Assembly: GCA_024613925.1 (NCBI GenBank)
Contig: GCA_024613925.1_4713.1
Origin: a phage
DNA length: 64,000 nucleotides
Strand: one strand, 5' to 3'
Below are positions 30,422 to 37,253 of the stretch, piece by piece. A program made the translations under genes and the position numbers. The stretch's first letter is position 1; every line of letters begins with the position of its first letter. The notes beneath the pieces were generated by a model. That model was not told where the DNA came from, ran no database searches, and saw only the letters and a list, made by a program, of their open reading frames with translations.

Positions 30422-30511
30422 TCCGATGCGGTAAATGTCTACTAGCTCTCATAATCTATTGAAGAAACTACCAGCTTACGCCAACTTAGATTAATCAGGA
30501 GTAACCATCCC

Positions 30512-30985
30512 ATGCCAGTTTCATCCAAACCAAGAAAAAAATCCGTAGGAAACCCTAAAGCTCAGGAAACAACAGCAATTCGTTGGGACGAGTTACGTGA
30601 ACCTATCGAAAACTGCGAATTGTTATTAGGTACCCTGGGTGCGGCTATTTACCAAGCGACGCAACCCTGTCGTTTACGATTAACCCAAAACAAACGTGAT
30701 GAGTTCGTTGCGTTATCAACAAGCACGAATAAAGATCTGACCGAACTTCAAACCGAGTTGACGACGATCAAGAACTCCATTACGCCGATGTACGGTAAAG
30801 AAGTTGATGAACAAAGTATTCTGTTACAGTACAACTACGGGATGTCGTTAATGAACATCCTGGAACGCGCATCCGATATTCTGCGTCCTGACGTTGCACG
30901 CCTGAGCCAACTGCGTGTCGAAGGGATGGAGAACCAGATCCGATTCGCTAACAGTGTTAAATCTCAAGGAGCCACCGAAGCATGA
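30512..30985 (+). CDS. Hypothetical protein
   Basis: 157-aa ORF; AGGAG before ATG; 4-bp overlap with next gene. Confidence 0.5.
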   Translation: MPVSSKPRKKSVGNPKAQETTAIRWDELREPIENCELLLGTLGAAIYQATQPCRLRLTQNKRDEFVALSTSTNKDLTELQTELTTIKNSITPMYGKEVDEQSILLQYNYGMSLMNILERASDILRPDVARLSQLRVEGMENQIRFANSVKSQGATEA

Positions 30986-32667
30986 GCGAACAAGAAAAAG
31001 AAGTCGTGACGAATCAGGAAGCCGTTGAGCGTTCAGAGTCGTCCGCTGAAACAACGATTCCAGCAAGTTCCGATCCTGTTGGTTCCGCACAGCAGGAAAG
31101 TAAAGACGAAGTAAACACTACTAAAGAAGATGTAGTGGCTCCAGAAGCAACCCGTGAAGAAGAACCGTCACATCCGCCGCTGGTCGATTTCTCGAAGGCG
31201 ACGATACGTTTCCAATGCGAAGACATTCGTCCTAAGAGTCCGAAGAAAACAAAACGCCAGCCGCTGGTGTTACCGCTGTATTCTCCACGTGTGCAGACAA
31301 CGTATTACCGGGAATACATCAACGAAGCAATGGATACCGTACAAGCCATTGTCGCTCAACGCGGTAAACCTACAGACGAACAGTTTGATAAATTCAGTAA
31401 AGCGGTGGTACAATCGGTTGCTGATGGACAATACCATCCGCGTGGCCCAGCTCACGATCGCGCGTTGGAACGTAAGGGCAGTCAGTGGACTAACGTACCC
31501 GTAGACTCATCGGGTGTTGGTCGCGTTATTCCTGGCATCCCGCAACCGAACCATATCCCTGATGATGTCGAAGCGCCGCTGACAGGAACCGATGCGATCT
31601 ATTTTGCCATCCGCAATACGAAATCAGGCGCACCTGCGGTAATGCCGTTATGGCATAGCGGTATTAAGCTGCAGTTCAATCCGCCATCAAATGAACGTGT
31701 TGCAATTATGCACGAACGTATTGCACGCGATAAAATCCTGGGTGGACGTGATAGCACCGGTTTCCTGTTTTCGGCAACCTCGATTATCACCATGAAGCAT
31801 GCTATCGAATTAGCGTTAGAATGCTGTTACATGGCCAACGTACCGAACCTGGATATCCAGCGTTTGAAAGACATTATTCCGGTTACCGATGTTCCGGCAT
31901 TGTTGTTGAACGTGCTGGTAACCATGTATCCGTACGGGTATCCTTACGTACAGACCTGCTATCAGAATCCAGAAACCTGCGACTATCGTGTCGAAGACAC
32001 CGTAAGCTTTGCGAAGCTCTATCAAGTTGACAACAGCGCAATTACCAAACGTATGCGACAGATCATGACCGAAGGTCCGGTCATGACCGATGAACTTTTG
32101 CGTGAGTATGCAAACGAACTGGGTGAAACGAACTCCCGCACGTTGGATCTGTCCGACAACGGTTCTGTTATCATTGAGCTTGAAGTGCCGAAGATTTCAC
32201 GACAAATCGCCATGGGTGAACGTTGGTTAAGCGATACCTTGGAAGATCTGCGTGATATTCTATCGCGTCCGTCAATGACCGAAGAAGAGCGTGATCGTGT
32301 TATTCGTGAACGTCAGTTCTATAGCTGGATGCGTCAGTATGATGCATGGATCAAATCGATGCATGTGTCAGTAAACGGTACCATGCGTCGTGTAAGCGAT
32401 GCGGATACGGCAACGGTATTAGCACAGCTGTCTCGTGACAGCGACCTTCGTGAACGCTATATCGATGGGCTGATGCAATTCATCGGTGATTCGACGATTG
32501 CGCTCGCAGCAATGCCTGCCTGGAAATGTCCGAAATGTAATGCCGATATTGCTGACAATCTGCGCGACCAGAAATACTACGATCTGATTGCTTTGGATGT
32601 ACCCCAGCTTTTTTTTACCCTAAACTCCGTCCAATCTCTTCAGGAGGGGATGGACGCGGTATTCTAA
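30982..32667 (+). CDS. Hypothetical protein (561 aa), candidate upstream partner of a -1 frameshift
   Basis: Long ORF ending 51 nt after a T8 run; the -1 frame stays open from 32556 to 33089. Confidence 0.6.
   Translation: MSEQEKEVVTNQEAVERSESSAETTIPASSDPVGSAQQESKDEVNTTKEDVVAPEATREEEPSHPPLVDFSKATIRFQCEDIRPKSPKKTKRQPLVLPLYSPRVQTTYYREYINEAMDTVQAIVAQRGKPTDEQFDKFSKAVVQSVADGQYHPRGPAHDRALERKGSQWTNVPVDSSGVGRVIPGIPQPNHIPDDVEAPLTGTDAIYFAIRNTKSGAPAVMPLWHSGIKLQFNPPSNERVAIMHERIARDKILGGRDSTGFLFSATSIITMKHAIELALECCYMANVPNLDIQRLKDIIPVTDVPALLLNVLVTMYPYGYPYVQTCYQNPETCDYRVEDTVSFAKLYQVDNSAITKRMRQIMTEGPVMTDELLREYANELGETNSRTLDLSDNGSVIIELEVPKISRQIAMGERWLSDTLEDLRDILSRPSMTEEERDRVIRERQFYSWMRQYDAWIKSMHVSVNGTMRRVSDADTATVLAQLSRDSDLRERYIDGLMQFIGDSTIALAAMPAWKCPKCNADIADNLRDQKYYDLIALDVPQLFFTLNSVQSLQEGMDAVF
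32609..32616 (+). other. T8 homopolymer, candidate -1 slippery site (U UUU UUU in the zero frame)
   Basis: Codons CTT TTT TTT in the 30982..32667 frame; a -1 slip gives ..FFYPKLRPISSGGDGRGILIDPRYGLHDGQLV.. Confidence 0.4.
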
Positions 32668-32729
32668 TCGATCCGCGATACGGGTTACATGACGGACAAC
32701 TTGTTCGTAATGATGAAAAAATCTGGGAA

Positions 32730-33089
32730 TTGCTGTTAGCGCGTAAAGGCGACGGCGGCATGAAACTGAACATCGAAATGGGTATTGCGTACGATACCAT
32801 GTTTGGTTTGTACGACCGCGTTAACGAATGGACACCGTTGAAATGGGTGGCTCAGCATCCCGCTGAAGATCCCTGGGACAGATTAGGGATTAAACCCTTA
32901 ATCGAGGATTATGTTCGATTCGGTATTAAAGAGTTCATGACGCTGGATGCGTTTTTAAAAGCACCGTATCCTTACGCGCAAACGGTACTCAAAATCGCAC
33001 AAGACGAACTGCGGAAACGTAGTGCGGTACTGGACGACGATGAGGACAAGTTACGACGAGAAGAAGAACGTTTACGAAACGGAAAATAA
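32730..33089 (+). CDS. Downstream ORF, either a frameshift extension of 30982..32667 or a separate small gene
   Basis: Track start is TTG with no convincing ribosome-binding site; frame is open upstream to 32556. Confidence 0.35.
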   Translation: MLLARKGDGGMKLNIEMGIAYDTMFGLYDRVNEWTPLKWVAQHPAEDPWDRLGIKPLIEDYVRFGIKEFMTLDAFLKAPYPYAQTVLKIAQDELRKRSAVLDDDEDKLRREEERLRNGK

Positions 33090-33090
33090 A

Positions 33091-33600
33091 ATGGCGAGAT
33101 TTACCAGTTTGATTGGGTTGGATATTTGGGAAACACCGGCTGACGTTCGGGTTATTCCTGTCAACACCGTCGGTGTGATGGGACGCGGTCTTGCCAAGCA
33201 GGCGGCCGATCGTGTACCCGGTCTTCTTGAAGCGTACCGTAAGCAATGTCAAGATGGGTTTAAGGTGGGCGAAGTCGTGTCATATCAGCATGGCGAGAAC
33301 GATCAGCTCACCTACGTGTTGTTTCCATCAAAATCGGATTGGCGCGAAAAAACACGACGTGAGTATATCGTTAATGGTTTACTGGCGTTAAAAGCGTGGT
33401 TATTGGAGCTTCAGTTCGAAAGAGACGGCTTCTCATACCACCGTCCGGCTGAACCGTTGATTGTCGCAATTCCTCCGGTTGGTTCTGGTTGCGGTAATAT
33501 CGGTTACGGACAATCCGAAACAATCCAGCCTCAATGGGTACGCGCACAAATCAAACAGTATCTTGCCACCGTGCCAAACGTTCATTTCTACTTGTTCTAA
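33091..33600 (+). CDS. Macro-domain protein (ADP-ribose binding or processing)
   Basis: VIPVNTVGVMGRGLAKQ matches the N-terminal glycine-rich macro-domain motif; start moved to ATG at 33091 (MARFTSL) one nt after the upstream stop. Confidence 0.65.
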   Translation: MARFTSLIGLDIWETPADVRVIPVNTVGVMGRGLAKQAADRVPGLLEAYRKQCQDGFKVGEVVSYQHGENDQLTYVLFPSKSDWREKTRREYIVNGLLALKAWLLELQFERDGFSYHRPAEPLIVAIPPVGSGCGNIGYGQSETIQPQWVRAQIKQYLATVPNVHFYLF

Positions 33601-33611
33601 TGCAACGGTAA

Positions 33612-33653
33612 CATAACCCTCTCCCTTCCCTTACGGGTTGGGAGAGGGCTTAT
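33612..33653. terminator. Bidirectional hairpin between convergent genes
   Basis: CATAACCCTCTCCC...GGGAGAGGGCTTATG extended stem, same core as the 2264 and 26450 elements. Confidence 0.5.
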
Positions 33654-34640: not shown

Positions 34641-37253
34641 TTAAGCGTCTGGTGTAAAATCAAAAGGAATGTCCGTACGAATGACATCATAGCGTTTTCC
34701 GAGGAAATAAAACTCTTCGGGAACCTGACCGGGAATAATGCTATCGCCGATGAACTGCGGATACGCCCAGATGTACTGAGTGAGTCCTTCGAACATATCC
34801 AGGTTATTTGCGTGGTTGCCCATGATACGTTTCCAGAGTTCGCGTTTATACGGTGTTTTAACATCGAACCCATAAAGCGGTGCAAGATCTTCACCAGGAA
34901 CAAATCCCAGGTAATAGTGAATCTGACTAACCGGGAAACCAAGCGTATCTCGCGGAATGGTGATCGCTTGCTCTGCCTTGGTGACATGCGTCTCAATAAT
35001 CCAGTCGTAACACTCCGAATAGAACCGATCGAATTTCTCTGGATTATACCACGCTTTGGGAAGATTCAGTTTCTCCGTGAACGCGTTCGACATGATCGTC
35101 GGCAAGAACGGAAGAATACCGGTTTTGATCTGCGTGTATTTCGATTTTACCCGGTTAACCAAATTCCAGCAACTGTATCCTAACTGTTCGTTACAAAACT
35201 CAACGTAGAGATCGTAGTCACCGCCGGATAATGGGTTGTTGATGTCACCGATGTCTGCGGCATATTTGTTGGGATATCGGTTATTGAAAGCCAGTTTGGT
35301 CTGGTAGTCGTAGATACACGGTTTGTTGTTCGCTGTATTGATCCACCACCAAGGTTCACCTACCTGCACACAAATGTCCTGGACATGAGGGTAGATGATA
35401 TCAGCGAATGCCGTTAACACATCCCCTAACCACGCCATCGCCTGTTGGTTACATGGAGACAGCAACCAAGATGGTGGCGTATATCCGGTTGCTGCGATGT
35501 TTCCTTCCCAATCCTGCTGCGCCCACTCGAACGGGCATGCGGTACTCATCAATTCGTAACTTAAACTGATGGTGACAGAGAAATGGTGTTTTGCAGCATA
35601 TGCGGCGAAAGCTTCATGCCACGCAATACAGGCCGGATTTAATACATCCGTGGTGTTTACCAGTAACTTACCTGCACTTGGCGTCCAGACAGTATCGTAG
35701 AAATGCGACATGCCAACATAATGCACTAATTCATCTTGATATCCCGCATAAACCAGGTTCTCAAATACGCGCTCCGGCGTGATGTTGTAATGGTCATCAT
35801 AAGCAGTTATCGCACGAAGTTCGTGTGGTGTACAGTGGTGGCGACTAACCGTCATTTCCTGATACACCCCATCGATAGGAAGAATCTCGAGGGTTAAGCC
35901 GAGGTCGATTGGCGTTTCCAGATAGGTCGTTTCAGTCGCACCTTCCTTATAATGTCGAGAACTCATGCTGAACATCAACGACGCTACCGATTCGAGTTCG
36001 ATAGGCTCGTCAGCATAGAACCCCGCCATTGCGTCATTGAAATCGATCGTCACGATTGCGCTTCTACCGTCTTCAGAGACATCGGTCGCATATCGGGTTA
36101 ATGAGATATACTGACGGCTATCGTCTTTGTGTACGACGGTTAAAACCGGCGGGTGTTCGGTATCTGCAAAGTTACGCTGGTCGCCAGTAAACGTGACCTT
36201 CGCTTTAAAGATCAAACCGAGTAACGATGTCATGGGATCATACGCAATACTGCCGTGATCCAGCGTATCCGTTGTCCGCCATTCTATCCCGACCAACCCG
36301 TTAGCGGTATGGCATCGCATATACGCATTAAGTGTCATGTCCTCACTGACAACCGCGAAGTTCTCTGTTGACTGACCGTTGATAATCCAATACATCGGTT
36401 GCCAGAGGTTACGCGTACCTTTTGCGTAGTGGTAGGTTGGTGCGCCTTTGGGATTGCCATTATTAAGATGAAATACAGCAGTACCTTGATAATGGTCGTT
36501 CGTATTAATCGGAACACTGTAAGCATCACCGAGGTCCGTACGTTCGACCTTCGTGACTGTTGCGTTTTCAAACAACCCACGTAACGCCGGTAAACCGATA
36601 TCTTCAGGTGCGTTTTCTCGACGAATCGCATCCGCGATGCGGTGGGCTAAGGCGGGGTAAATGGCATCACCCTGTTGTAGGTTTGCAAGACCTACAAAGC
36701 GATCGGGGTCGATGCCAGCAATCAATAACTCAACATCACCCTTCGTTCTATCGTTGTGAAGATATTTCAGTCCAGTAAGATCGAGGTGCTGAATAAGCGA
36801 CAACAGGTTGTATTTACGGTTTTCAACAGTTAGTACAAGATCGCCTGCCCAAACCAAACTTCCCTCATCCGCTGTTACTTTAACGGATTGTCGGCCTGTG
36901 GTAGACGTTGTTGTCGTTTTATTTAATTGTCCTTGTAGGAAGTCGGTTGCGAGGTCAAAGGCAATGCCGTAACGGTCAGCGACCGCTTGCATGATTTCAC
37001 GTAACTGGGTATCTTCTTCAATGATAATCTTGACAGGTATTCCCAAGAACGCTTTAGCGAGGTCTCGTTTAACCAACGAGACGAATACGGATTTGTAGTA
37101 TCGACTTCCATCTTTCCCTTTAAAAAGAATGGAGGTTGTTTCGGGTGACGATAGAATACGCGCAAATTCAACATCGTCGAAAGTAAGAGAAAGTCCGTTT
37201 TTCTCGTTGACCAATCTTAGTATTTCATTTTGCGCGGTTTCATGTAACTTCAT
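34641..37253 (-). CDS. Tail fibre or tailspike protein with conserved N-terminal anchor domain and aromatic-rich C-terminal domain
   Basis: N-terminal block ..RDLAKAFLGIPVKI..YGIAFDLATDF shared with three other genes; C-terminus rich in W/Y (GEPWWWINTANNKP). Confidence 0.6.
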   Translation of the reverse strand: MKLHETAQNEILRLVNEKNGLSLTFDDVEFARILSSPETTSILFKGKDGSRYYKSVFVSLVKRDLAKAFLGIPVKIIIEEDTQLREIMQAVADRYGIAFDLATDFLQGQLNKTTTTSTTGRQSVKVTADEGSLVWAGDLVLTVENRKYNLLSLIQHLDLTGLKYLHNDRTKGDVELLIAGIDPDRFVGLANLQQGDAIYPALAHRIADAIRRENAPEDIGLPALRGLFENATVTKVERTDLGDAYSVPINTNDHYQGTAVFHLNNGNPKGAPTYHYAKGTRNLWQPMYWIINGQSTENFAVVSEDMTLNAYMRCHTANGLVGIEWRTTDTLDHGSIAYDPMTSLLGLIFKAKVTFTGDQRNFADTEHPPVLTVVHKDDSRQYISLTRYATDVSEDGRSAIVTIDFNDAMAGFYADEPIELESVASLMFSMSSRHYKEGATETTYLETPIDLGLTLEILPIDGVYQEMTVSRHHCTPHELRAITAYDDHYNITPERVFENLVYAGYQDELVHYVGMSHFYDTVWTPSAGKLLVNTTDVLNPACIAWHEAFAAYAAKHHFSVTISLSYELMSTACPFEWAQQDWEGNIAATGYTPPSWLLSPCNQQAMAWLGDVLTAFADIIYPHVQDICVQVGEPWWWINTANNKPCIYDYQTKLAFNNRYPNKYAADIGDINNPLSGGDYDLYVEFCNEQLGYSCWNLVNRVKSKYTQIKTGILPFLPTIMSNAFTEKLNLPKAWYNPEKFDRFYSECYDWIIETHVTKAEQAITIPRDTLGFPVSQIHYYLGFVPGEDLAPLYGFDVKTPYKRELWKRIMGNHANNLDMFEGLTQYIWAYPQFIGDSIIPGQVPEEFYFLGKRYDVIRTDIPFDFTPDA

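What the first reader, a model, noticed from the sequence alone, without database searches (positions are those of the whole stretch)
30512..33600. Plus-strand island encoding a macro-domain protein: candidate ADP-ribose-directed anti-defence or NAD-salvage function
A three- to four-gene plus-strand cassette sits between minus-strand blocks, bounded by a divergent promoter region (30422-30511) and a strong bidirectional hairpin (33612-33653). Its last gene has the macro-domain glycine-rich loop VNTVGVMGRGLAKQ. Macro domains bind or hydrolyse ADP-ribose and its derivatives; in a phage this is compatible with reversing host ADP-ribosylation or processing NAD-derived defence products. The two upstream genes, including the frameshift pair, have no recognisable function and may act with it.
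Basis: partly seen in the sequence, partly recalled or inferred. Interest (0 to 1): 0.65.

Follow-up and report, generated by a model that had tools for sequence, protein, structure and literature searches.

The report
Known phage anti-DarT macrodomain gene (AdfM)
The macro-domain gene is real and matches AdfM, a jumbo-phage enzyme published in 2026 that strips ADP-ribose from phage DNA to defeat the bacterial DarTG2 defence, so it is already explained; the gene just upstream appears to carry an unreported, family-wide programmed -1 frameshift.

Summary
The window comes from a close relative (95.9% nt identity) of Escherichia phage Goslar, a nucleus-forming jumbo phage. The + strand island 30512-33600 corresponds to Goslar gp080-gp083.

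The last gene (33091-33600, 169 aa) is a genuine macrodomain of the DarG/TARG1 type. Its best sequence and fold matches are the DarG macrodomains of Thermus aquaticus and Mycobacterium tuberculosis. The catalytic Asn and Lys are kept (N25, K81). It is 31% identical over its full length to phiKZ gp104.

Morgan et al. (Cell Rep 2026) showed that phiKZ gp104, named AdfM, removes DarT2-made ADP-ribose from DNA inside the phage nucleus. They list Goslar gp83 as an AdfM. The anti-defence reading is therefore right but already published. NAD salvage is not supported.

The upstream genes are a phiKZ gp78-like gene and core gene cg18 (phiKZ gp77), both of unknown function. AdfM works alone in vitro and in E. 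coli, so it does not need them.

The "frameshift pair" is the new part. An in-phase T_TTT_TTT site at 32610-32616 joins cg18 to a ~157-codon -1 ORF that has no start codon upstream of its conserved N-terminal region. All 35 related loci examined have this layout, including phiKZ-like phages and a Bacillus phage. I found no report of it.

The parts
30422..30511 (.). Intergenic gap between divergent genes (Goslar gp079 on the - strand, gp080 on the + strand). A phage promoter region is presumed but not shown.
   Evidence: ORF map. No sigma-70-like site in this gap. AGGAG lies 11 nt before ATG 30512 (sequence).
30512..30985 (+). Goslar gp080 homologue (157 aa), phiKZ gp78-like, function unknown. 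Its stop overlaps the next gene's start (ATGA).
   Evidence: 201phi2-1 gp137, at the equivalent position just upstream of the cg18 homologue, is annotated 'similar to phiKZ gp78'. No Pfam, NCBIfam or PADLOC hit.
30982..32667 (+). Chimallivirus core gene cg18 (Goslar gp081 = phiKZ gp77 = RAY gp267), 561 aa, function unknown. Four cysteines invariant across the family (C326, C333, C516, C519) suggest a Zn site.
   Evidence: PHROG 4585, E 3e-67. 158 phage records by tblastn. Core genome Table S3. 1223 cluster representatives. Invariant Cys in alignments A5 and A8. The structure model failed (pLDDT 34).
32610..32616 (+). In-phase slippery heptamer T_TTT_TTT (T8 run 32609-32616) at the conserved FF of motif QLFFTLNS. 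Candidate programmed -1 frameshift site.
   Evidence: Sequence. Same run and phase in 7 of 7 Goslar-like sequences with 53-99% protein identity. T_TTT_TTY/A or G_TTT_TTY at the same motif in all other loci.
32616..33089 (+). -1-frame extension ORF (157 codons, phrog_12109). Goslar gp082 is annotated only from the ATG at window 32760. Predicted to be made as a ~703-aa cg18 fusion.
   Evidence: The frame is open with no start codon before 32730. Between 32667 and 32759, 19 of 26 variable sites are third positions of this frame and 16 of 21 variable codons are synonymous-only. Homologous -1 ORFs of 150-180 codons occur in all 35 loci.
33091..33600 (+). adfM orthologue: single-domain DarG2-like macrodomain (169 aa), with catalytic N25 and K81 and the glycine-rich loop at 28-35. 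ATG 33091 lies 1 nt after the stop of the -1 ORF.
   Evidence: Literature.
33612..33653 (.). Strong hairpin between convergent genes. Bidirectional terminator-like element that closes the island.
   Evidence: dG -33.9 kcal/mol, z = -6.2, 0 of 200 shuffles as stable. Annotated terminator in Goslar.

Best explanation
The island is the 3' part of a conserved chimallivirus gene block, with an accessory anti-defence gene at its end.

The macro gene:
- The last gene encodes AdfM, an orphan DarG2-like macrodomain.
- By homology, it is imported into the phage nucleus. There it hydrolyses the ADP-ribose that the host toxin DarT2 puts on thymines of single-stranded phage DNA, using the conserved Asn25/Lys81 active site. 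This restores replication and packaging on hosts carrying DarTG2.

Shown here:
- The macro fold.
- Its closest relationship to DarG macrodomains.
- Conservation of the catalytic residues.
- The single-domain architecture.
- Full-length similarity to phiKZ gp104, which hits only this ORF in the window.

Shown elsewhere, for phiKZ and PhiPA3:
- The enzymology, the nuclear localisation and the DarTG2 phenotype.

Inferred:
- That this phage's protein does the same in E. coli or Salmonella hosts.

The upstream genes:
- gp078-like, cg18 and its -1 extension are replication-block genes of unknown function.
- They are probably co-transcribed with adfM, but AdfM activity does not require them.
For: Context:
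- The window is 95.9% identical to Goslar across the island. The gene equals Goslar gp083.

Sequence family:
- Pfam Macro E 9e-6, above the gathering score.
- Best PDB sequence hits: T. aquaticus DarG macrodomain 5M31/5M3E (E 4.8e-15) and M. tuberculosis DarG 5M3I (E 1.8e-11).
- NCBIfam antitoxin_DarG 3e-23, covering profile positions 7-146 of 338.
- PADLOC DarG 1.7e-22.

Fold:
- AF2 model pLDDT 87.9.
- Foldseek top hits are DarG macrodomains (TM 0.86-0.88 normalised by target, E about 1e-14), then TARG1.

Catalytic residues:
- N25 and K81 align with Taq DarG N22/K80 and phiKZ N23/K78.
- Both are invariant in 13 homologues.

Relationship to AdfM:
- 31% identity to phiKZ gp104 from residue 1 (E 3e-24).
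- It is the only hit of phiKZ gp104 in the window.

Literature:
- PMC13309987 shows phiKZ gp104 = AdfM removes DarT2 ADP-ribose from DNA. N23A weakens the activity.
- Deletion costs 3-6 logs of titre on DarTG2 hosts.
- The protein is nuclear, and Goslar gp83 is listed as an AdfM.
- DarTG2 restricts coliphages in E. coli.
Against: - No experiment exists for the Goslar-type protein itself. The AdfM paper used Goslar gp83 only in an alignment.
- Identity to phiKZ AdfM is only 31%, and to Taq DarG about 29%.
- An insertion around residues 110-145 has lower model confidence (pLDDT about 60).
- Nuclear import signals are phage-specific and cannot be read from sequence.
- DarG-type and TARG1-type macrodomains share one active site, so a protein- or RNA-linked ADP-ribose substrate cannot be excluded from sequence alone.
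Confidence: 0.85

Rival explanations
1. The macrodomain is a Poa1p/YmdB/MacroD-type metabolite hydrolase (ADP-ribose-1''-phosphate phosphatase or O-acetyl-ADP-ribose deacetylase). It would serve NAD or tRNA-splicing by-product metabolism, or degrade NAD-derived defence signals.
For: - The Goslar record cites cd02901 Macro_Poa1p_like.
- PHROG 335 is labelled 'phosphatase'.
- Two metagenome homologues are named O-acetyl-ADP-ribose deacetylase by their source.
- Poa1p appears among the fold matches (rank 13, TM about 0.7).
Against: - DarG profiles score about 20 orders of magnitude better than the YmdB-like NCBIfam model (3e-23 against 0.08).
- Poa1p shares only 16-17% identity and superposes with rmsd above 5 A.
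- The protein has the DarG/TARG1 catalytic Lys (K81 in FPSKSDW), not the MacroD Asp after the glycine loop.
- The experimentally characterised orthologue acts on DNA.
Confidence: 0.05
2. The four genes form one functional module. cg18, made in short and frameshift-extended forms, works with AdfM, for example by recognising or processing ADP-ribosylated or otherwise damaged DNA in the phage nucleus.
For: - The order cg18, -1 ORF, macro, with 0-15 nt gaps, is kept in all Goslar-like genomes and in 8 divergent IMG/VR lineages where cg18 is only 24-31% identical.
- The macro ATG lies 1 nt after the stop of the -1 ORF.
- cg18 sits in a replication and transcription block.
- It has four invariant cysteines.
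Against: - cg18 is a core gene of all chimalliviruses, whereas AdfM occurs in about half.
- In phiKZ the two genes are far apart (gp77 against gp104), and about 25 loci have cg18 with no adjacent macro.
- PhiKZ AdfM acts alone in vitro and in E. coli.
- Gene order is generally conserved in chimallivirus core blocks, so synteny alone is weak evidence.
Confidence: 0.08
3. The macrodomain reverses ADP-ribosylation of protein or RNA rather than DNA. Targets could be marks made by host ADP-ribosyltransferase defences (for example mRNA ADP-ribosylation by CmdTAC-like systems) or by the phage's own enzymes.
For: - TARG1, the next-best structural relative, acts on protein-linked ADP-ribose.
- mRNA-targeting ADP-ribosyltransferase defences exist (PMC11618068, listed).
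Against: - The closest relatives by sequence and structure are DarG macrodomains, which act on DNA (PMC13309987).
- The orthologue localises to the phage nucleus, where the DNA is.
Confidence: 0.05

Closest known systems
AdfM (anti-DarT factor macro): phiKZ gp104, PhiPA3 gp108, Asesino gp217, Goslar gp83 (Morgan et al., Cell Rep 2026, PMC13309987)
   Same: - Single-domain macro protein of about 160-170 aa encoded by a chimallivirus.
- 31% identical to phiKZ gp104 over the full length, with the catalytic Asn and Lys conserved.
- About 96% identical at the DNA level to the Goslar gene that the paper lists as an AdfM.
   Different: - Genomic position: directly after cg18 here and in Goslar, but about 25 genes away in phiKZ.
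- It has a 25-30 residue insertion (about 110-145) relative to phiKZ gp104.
- Neither this protein nor Goslar gp83 has been tested experimentally.
DarG2 antitoxin macrodomain (T. aquaticus 5M31/5M3E, M. tuberculosis 5M3I)
   Same: - Same fold (TM 0.86-0.88).
- Same ADP-ribose-binding loop.
- Same catalytic residues (N22/K80 against N25/K81).
   Different: - It lacks the C-terminal DarT-binding domain (only profile positions 7-146 of 338 are matched).
- There is no adjacent darT gene.
- It is phage-encoded, so it neutralises by enzymatic reversal only.
AdfN (phage NADAR anti-DarTG1 factors of T4-like phages; PMC11825919)
   Same: The same strategy: an orphan, antitoxin-like ADP-ribosylglycohydrolase carried by a phage to erase DarT marks on its DNA.
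   Different: - A different fold (NADAR, not macro).
- A different substrate (ADP-ribosyl-guanine from DarT1, not thymine from DarT2).
Programmed -1 frameshifts of phage genes (lambda G/GT tail chaperone, T7 10A/10B, E. coli dnaX)
   Same: For the cg18/extension pair: an in-phase X_XXY_YYZ heptamer near the 3' end of the upstream ORF, and a downstream -1 ORF that lacks its own start. The predicted result is a short product and a C-terminally extended product.
   Different: - The gene family (phiKZ gp77/cg18) is unrelated to tail chaperones, capsid proteins or clamp loaders by every search run here.
- No conserved stimulatory RNA structure was found.
- No protein evidence exists yet.

Membership tests
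AdfM (chimallivirus anti-DarT macrodomain) | Macro fold | tested here: met
   Pfam Macro above the gathering score. AF2 model pLDDT 87.9, with more than 200 macro structures matched at E <= 1e-3.
AdfM (chimallivirus anti-DarT macrodomain) | Closest relatives are DarG2 macrodomains, with the catalytic Asn and Lys conserved | tested here: met
   DarG is the top hit by sequence and by fold. N25 and K81 align with Taq N22/K80 and phiKZ N23/K78 and are invariant in alignment A2.
AdfM (chimallivirus anti-DarT macrodomain) | Homology to phiKZ gp104 in a chimallivirus genome | tested here: met
   Full-length alignment, 31% identity, E 3e-24. It is the sole hit of gp104 in the window. The window is 95.9% identical to Goslar, and Goslar gp83 is listed as an AdfM in PMC13309987.
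AdfM (chimallivirus anti-DarT macrodomain) | Removes DarT2-made ADP-ribose from thymine in ssDNA and protects the phage from DarTG2 | not testable with these tools
   Shown only for phiKZ and PhiPA3 proteins.
AdfM (chimallivirus anti-DarT macrodomain) | Imported into the phage nucleus (PicA-dependent) | not testable with these tools
   Shown for the phiKZ, PhiPA3 and Asesino proteins. The import determinants are not a recognisable linear motif.
DarG type II antitoxin (full length) | C-terminal DarT-binding domain and an adjacent darT toxin gene | tested here: not met
   The protein is 169 aa. The NCBIfam DarG match covers only 7-146 of 338 positions and scores 82.6 bits against a cutoff of 250. 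The neighbouring genes are phage core genes.
MacroD/YmdB/Poa1p-type metabolite hydrolases | Best match to those families and their catalytic motif | tested here: not met
   YmdB-like NCBIfam E 0.08. Poa1p shares 16-17% identity with rmsd above 5 A. The catalytic Lys is of the DarG/TARG1 type.
Programmed -1 ribosomal frameshift (cg18 + extension) | In-phase slippery heptamer conserved across divergent relatives | tested here: met
   T_TTT_TTT is in the same phase in 7 of 7 Goslar-like sequences. At least 26 of the 35 loci carry T_TTT_TTT/C/A and the rest G_TTT_TTY, always at the FF motif.
Programmed -1 ribosomal frameshift (cg18 + extension) | Downstream -1 ORF that is conserved, under purifying selection, and lacks its own start codon | tested here: met
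   -1 ORFs span 150-180 codons in 35 of 35 loci, against a median of 1 codon in the +1 frame. All 24 aligned products match phrog_12109. 19 of 26 variable sites upstream of the annotated ATG fall on third positions. Most loci have no ATG/GTG/TTG near the ORF start.
Programmed -1 ribosomal frameshift (cg18 + extension) | Stimulatory RNA element downstream of the site | tested here: inconclusive
   A 7-bp hairpin starts 9 nt after the run, but z is only -1.2 and there is no covariation support.
Programmed -1 ribosomal frameshift (cg18 + extension) | Trans-frame protein detected | not testable with these tools
   This needs mass spectrometry or western blotting. The predicted junction peptide is YYDLIALDVPQLFFYPK.

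The most novel reading that the evidence does not exclude
Core gene cg18 (the phiKZ gp77 family) may be expressed in two forms throughout the Chimalliviridae, and in a related Bacillus jumbo phage. The mechanism would be a previously unreported programmed -1 frameshift, or transcriptional slippage, at the T-run that encodes its conserved C-terminal FF motif. This would append a ~150-170-aa phrog_12109 domain. Current annotations miss that domain or truncate it (Goslar gp082, SL2 gp276, AgentSmith gene 12).

In the Goslar lineage and in 8 other lineages, adfM starts 0-15 nt after this trans-frame ORF. The anti-defence gene would then be the tail of the same expression unit.
Probability: 0.7. 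Interest if true: 0.55.

Novelty: already known. Interest (0 to 1): 0.3.

Why it matters
For the macro gene, little is new. It confirms that a Goslar-like coliphage carries the published AdfM counter-defence. This predicts sensitivity of adfM mutants on DarTG2-bearing E. coli or Salmonella, which is useful for host-range reasoning in phage therapy.

The frameshift matters more. cg18 is one of the 72 core genes of nucleus-forming phages and has no known function. A family-wide recoding site would mean two things:
- Its true products have been mis-annotated in every genome.
- There would be a precise handle for studying it: a synonymous slip-site mutant and a junction peptide.

Tried and rejected
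- Structure of cg18: AlphaFold2 on a 5-sequence alignment gave pLDDT 34, which is unusable. Only close relatives came back from the word-indexed homologue search, even when queried with a profile, so no deeper alignment could be submitted.
- Function of cg18 and of the extension: Pfam, NCBIfam, PADLOC and PDB-sequence searches with single sequences and with profiles of 7, 24 and 66 members found nothing significant.
- Link to baseplate hub proteins: the Bacillus phage annotation 'baseplate hub assembly protein' and one weak Pfam T4_baseplate hit (1 of 66 members, E 0.014) were tested against T4 gp26, gp51 and their neighbours. Only a shared CPxC motif aligned, scoring 1-2 bits. Rejected.
- Stimulatory RNA structure after the slip site: not significant and no covariation.
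- Independent initiation of the extension ORF: an AGGAGGGG motif (32642-32649) followed by in-frame ATT 32661 was considered. It is rejected as the main route because the motif is absent from L007 and L011, and because an Asp and a Gly that align across the three sequences lie upstream of that ATT.
- Sequencing error at the homopolymer: rejected, because 35 independent assemblies all need the same -1 shift.
- Literature on phiKZ gp77/gp78 or on frameshifting in chimalliviruses: nothing found in the held library.
- Sigma-70 promoter scan of the divergent region: no site, and uninformative for this phage.
Full report
**Identity of the window.** The island and its flanks are 95.9% identical at the DNA level to Escherichia phage vB_EcoM_Goslar, over 100% of the query. 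Goslar is a nucleus-forming jumbo phage of the Chimalliviridae. The + strand ORFs at 30512-30985, 30982-32667, 32760-33089 and 33091-33600 correspond to Goslar gp080, gp081, gp082 and gp083. The - strand neighbours are gp079 and the virion RNA polymerase subunit gp078 on one side. On the other side are gp084-gp086.

**Check of the observation.**
- A four-ORF + strand block lies between - strand genes.
- A 90-nt divergent gap precedes it (30422-30511).
- A very stable hairpin follows the last gene (dG -33.9 kcal/mol, z = -6.2). Goslar's annotators also called it a terminator.
- The motif VNTVGVMGRGLAKQ is residues 24-37 of the last ORF.
- No sigma-70-type promoter lies in the gap. That says little, because these phages transcribe with their own polymerases.

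**The macro gene: sequence and fold.**
- Pfam Macro is matched above its gathering score.
- The best solved-structure relatives by sequence are the DarG macrodomains of Thermus aquaticus (5M31/5M3E, E 4.8e-15) and Mycobacterium tuberculosis (5M3I, E 1.8e-11).
- NCBIfam's DarG antitoxin model matches at 3e-23, but only over its macro part (positions 7-146 of 338; 82.6 bits against a cutoff of 250).
- PADLOC's DarG model matches at 1.7e-22.
- An AlphaFold2 model built on 13 homologues is confident (pLDDT 87.9, pTM 0.86).
- Its best fold matches are the same DarG macrodomains (TM 0.86-0.88 normalised by target, E about 1e-14). TARG1 follows, and Poa1p and the viral macrodomains fall far behind.

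**The macro gene: active site and start codon.**
- Asn25 and Lys81 align with T. aquaticus DarG N22/K80 and with phiKZ gp104 N23/K78.
- Both residues are invariant among the homologues.
- The homologues begin MA.F..., and phiKZ gp104 aligns from residue 1 at 33091.
- ATG 33091 is therefore the likely start, not the upstream start annotated in Goslar (186 aa, overlapping gp082).

**What is already known.** Morgan et al. [quoted passage not shown]
- The purified protein removes DarT2-made ADP-ribose from a TNTC oligonucleotide, and N23A weakens this activity.
- It neutralises DarT2 toxicity in E. coli on its own.
- It localises to the phage nucleus.
- phiKZ and PhiPA3 mutants lose up to 3-6 logs of titre on hosts carrying DarTG2, and their DNA becomes ADP-ribosylated.
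- Their Figure 1 lists Goslar gp83 as an AdfM.

The window's protein is 31% identical to phiKZ gp104 over its full length (E 3e-24). It is the orthologue of Goslar gp83. DarTG2 is active against coliphages in E. coli (PMC11825919), so the target exists in this phage's host range.

The NAD-salvage alternative has no support. The gene is not a full DarG antitoxin: it has no DarT-binding domain and no adjacent darT. It is an orphan, enzymatic antitoxin mimic.

**The upstream genes.**
- The 561-aa ORF is core gene cg18 of the Chimalliviridae (Goslar gp081 = phiKZ gp77 = RAY gp267; Prichard et al. 2023 Table S3).
- It has homologues in 158 phage records and 1223 cluster representatives in the large protein library.
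- The 157-aa ORF before it occupies the position that 201phi2-1 gp137, annotated 'similar to phiKZ gp78', holds just upstream of that phage's cg18 homologue.
- Neither gene has a known function, and every family, PDB and literature search came back empty.
- Four invariant cysteines suggest a zinc site.
- The structure prediction for cg18 failed for lack of alignment depth.

**Do the upstream genes act with AdfM?** PhiKZ AdfM works alone in vitro and in E. coli. cg18 is universal whereas AdfM occurs in about half of chimalliviruses. In phiKZ-like phages, 201phi2-1 and Noxifer there is no macro gene next to cg18. So AdfM does not need them.

However, a macro gene directly follows the cg18 unit in all Goslar-like sequences. 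It also does so in eight divergent metagenomic lineages (L017, L018, L022, L023, L025, L026, L038, L039). That position is old or recurrent, and co-expression is likely.

**The frameshift pair in this window.** This is the part that is not in the literature I could search.
- In the window the cg18 frame ends at 32667.
- The next annotated gene starts at ATG 32760 in the -1 frame.
- That frame is open from 32553 and contains no ATG, GTG or TTG before 32730.
- An in-phase slippery heptamer T_TTT_TTT (32610-32616) encodes the FF of the conserved C-terminal motif QLFFTLNS.

**The frameshift pair in close relatives.**
- Seven Goslar-like sequences with cg18 identity from 53% to 99% keep the T8 run in the same phase, followed by ACCCTAAACTCC.
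- In two of them the -1 frame opens only four codons before the run.
- Among six close genomes I examined the 31 codons between the cg18 stop and the annotated ATG.
- There, 19 of 26 variable sites are third positions of the -1 frame, and 16 of 21 variable codons are synonymous-only.
- The annotated gene itself shows the same pattern.

**The frameshift pair across the family.**
- In 35 of 35 loci examined, a 150-180-codon -1 ORF starts at the FF site. The +1 frame runs a median of one codon.
- The loci include phiKZ-like SL2, 201phi2-1, Noxifer, the Bacillus phage AgentSmith and about 27 IMG/VR contigs.
- At least 26 of the 35 loci have a perfect T_TTT_TTT/C/A heptamer. The rest have G_TTT_TTY.
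- In most loci no canonical start codon exists between the upstream stop in the -1 frame and the conserved domain.
- The -1 products align as one family (A7). All 24 tested match phrog_12109.
- Annotations either miss this ORF, keep only its tail (SL2 gp276, AgentSmith gene 12), or start it at an arbitrary TTG or ATG (201phi2-1 gp135, Noxifer gp072, Goslar gp082).
- In Noxifer and SL2 the conserved peptide VVND.RYSRL spans the stop codon of cg18.

**Reading of the frameshift evidence.** The simplest reading is a programmed -1 ribosomal frameshift that yields a ~700-aa cg18-extension fusion alongside the ~560-aa product. Transcriptional slippage on the T-run would give the same protein. I found no convincing stimulatory RNA structure and there is no protein evidence. 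No paper in the held library combines chimalliviruses with ribosomal frameshifting.

**Verdict.** The finding is real and its main interpretation is right. But the macro gene is an already published anti-defence factor, so it scores low on novelty. Recoding is a well-known kind of mechanism, and the function of cg18 remains unknown. Even so, the recoding site in cg18 is the piece of this region that deserves follow-up.

Noticed in passing
window 32609-33089 (slip site 32610-32616); also L003 6494-6997, L004 3646-4137, L005 5053-5553, L007 7516-7998, L011 1794-2288, and L016-L045: Family-wide candidate programmed -1 frameshift in core gene cg18 (phiKZ gp77). A T-rich heptamer sits at the conserved FF motif, followed by a 150-180-codon -1 ORF (phrog_12109) that lacks its own start in most genomes. 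Current annotations truncate or miss this ORF.
   Followed up: yes
L017, L018, L022, L023, L025, L026, L038, L039 (IMG/VR loci), just 3' of the -1 ORF: A DarG-like macro gene directly follows the cg18 unit in eight divergent metagenomic chimallivirus-like lineages. It does not in phiKZ-like phages, 201phi2-1 or Noxifer. The adfM position next to cg18 is therefore old or recurrent.
   Followed up: partly
window 33040-33091 (Goslar gp083 annotated start against ATG 33091): The Goslar record starts gp083 17 codons upstream, overlapping gp082. The N termini of homologues and the phiKZ gp104 alignment support ATG 33091, which lies 1 nt after the stop of the -1 ORF (TAAAATG).
   Followed up: yes
P0001 and P0017 (L012: NCBI GCA_007261085.1, 180-kb contig): Near-identical Goslar-like phage genes occur in Salmonella enterica assemblies (serovars Muenchen and Panama). 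This suggests that Goslar-like phages are carried in, or contaminate, Salmonella isolates, and that Salmonella may be a host.
   Followed up: no
window 32642-32649: A strong Shine-Dalgarno-like AGGAGGGG lies inside the 3' end of cg18, 26 nt after the slip site. Close relatives keep it as GGGAGGGG, but L007 and L011 lack it. Its role is unknown; it could cause a ribosome pause or support weak internal initiation.
   Followed up: partly
window 34641-37253 (- strand): An 870-aa protein equal to Goslar gp086, a DUF7941-module protein with predicted carbohydrate-binding or glycosidase domains. The Goslar virion preprint proposes a role in host recognition. It is unrelated to the island.
   Followed up: no
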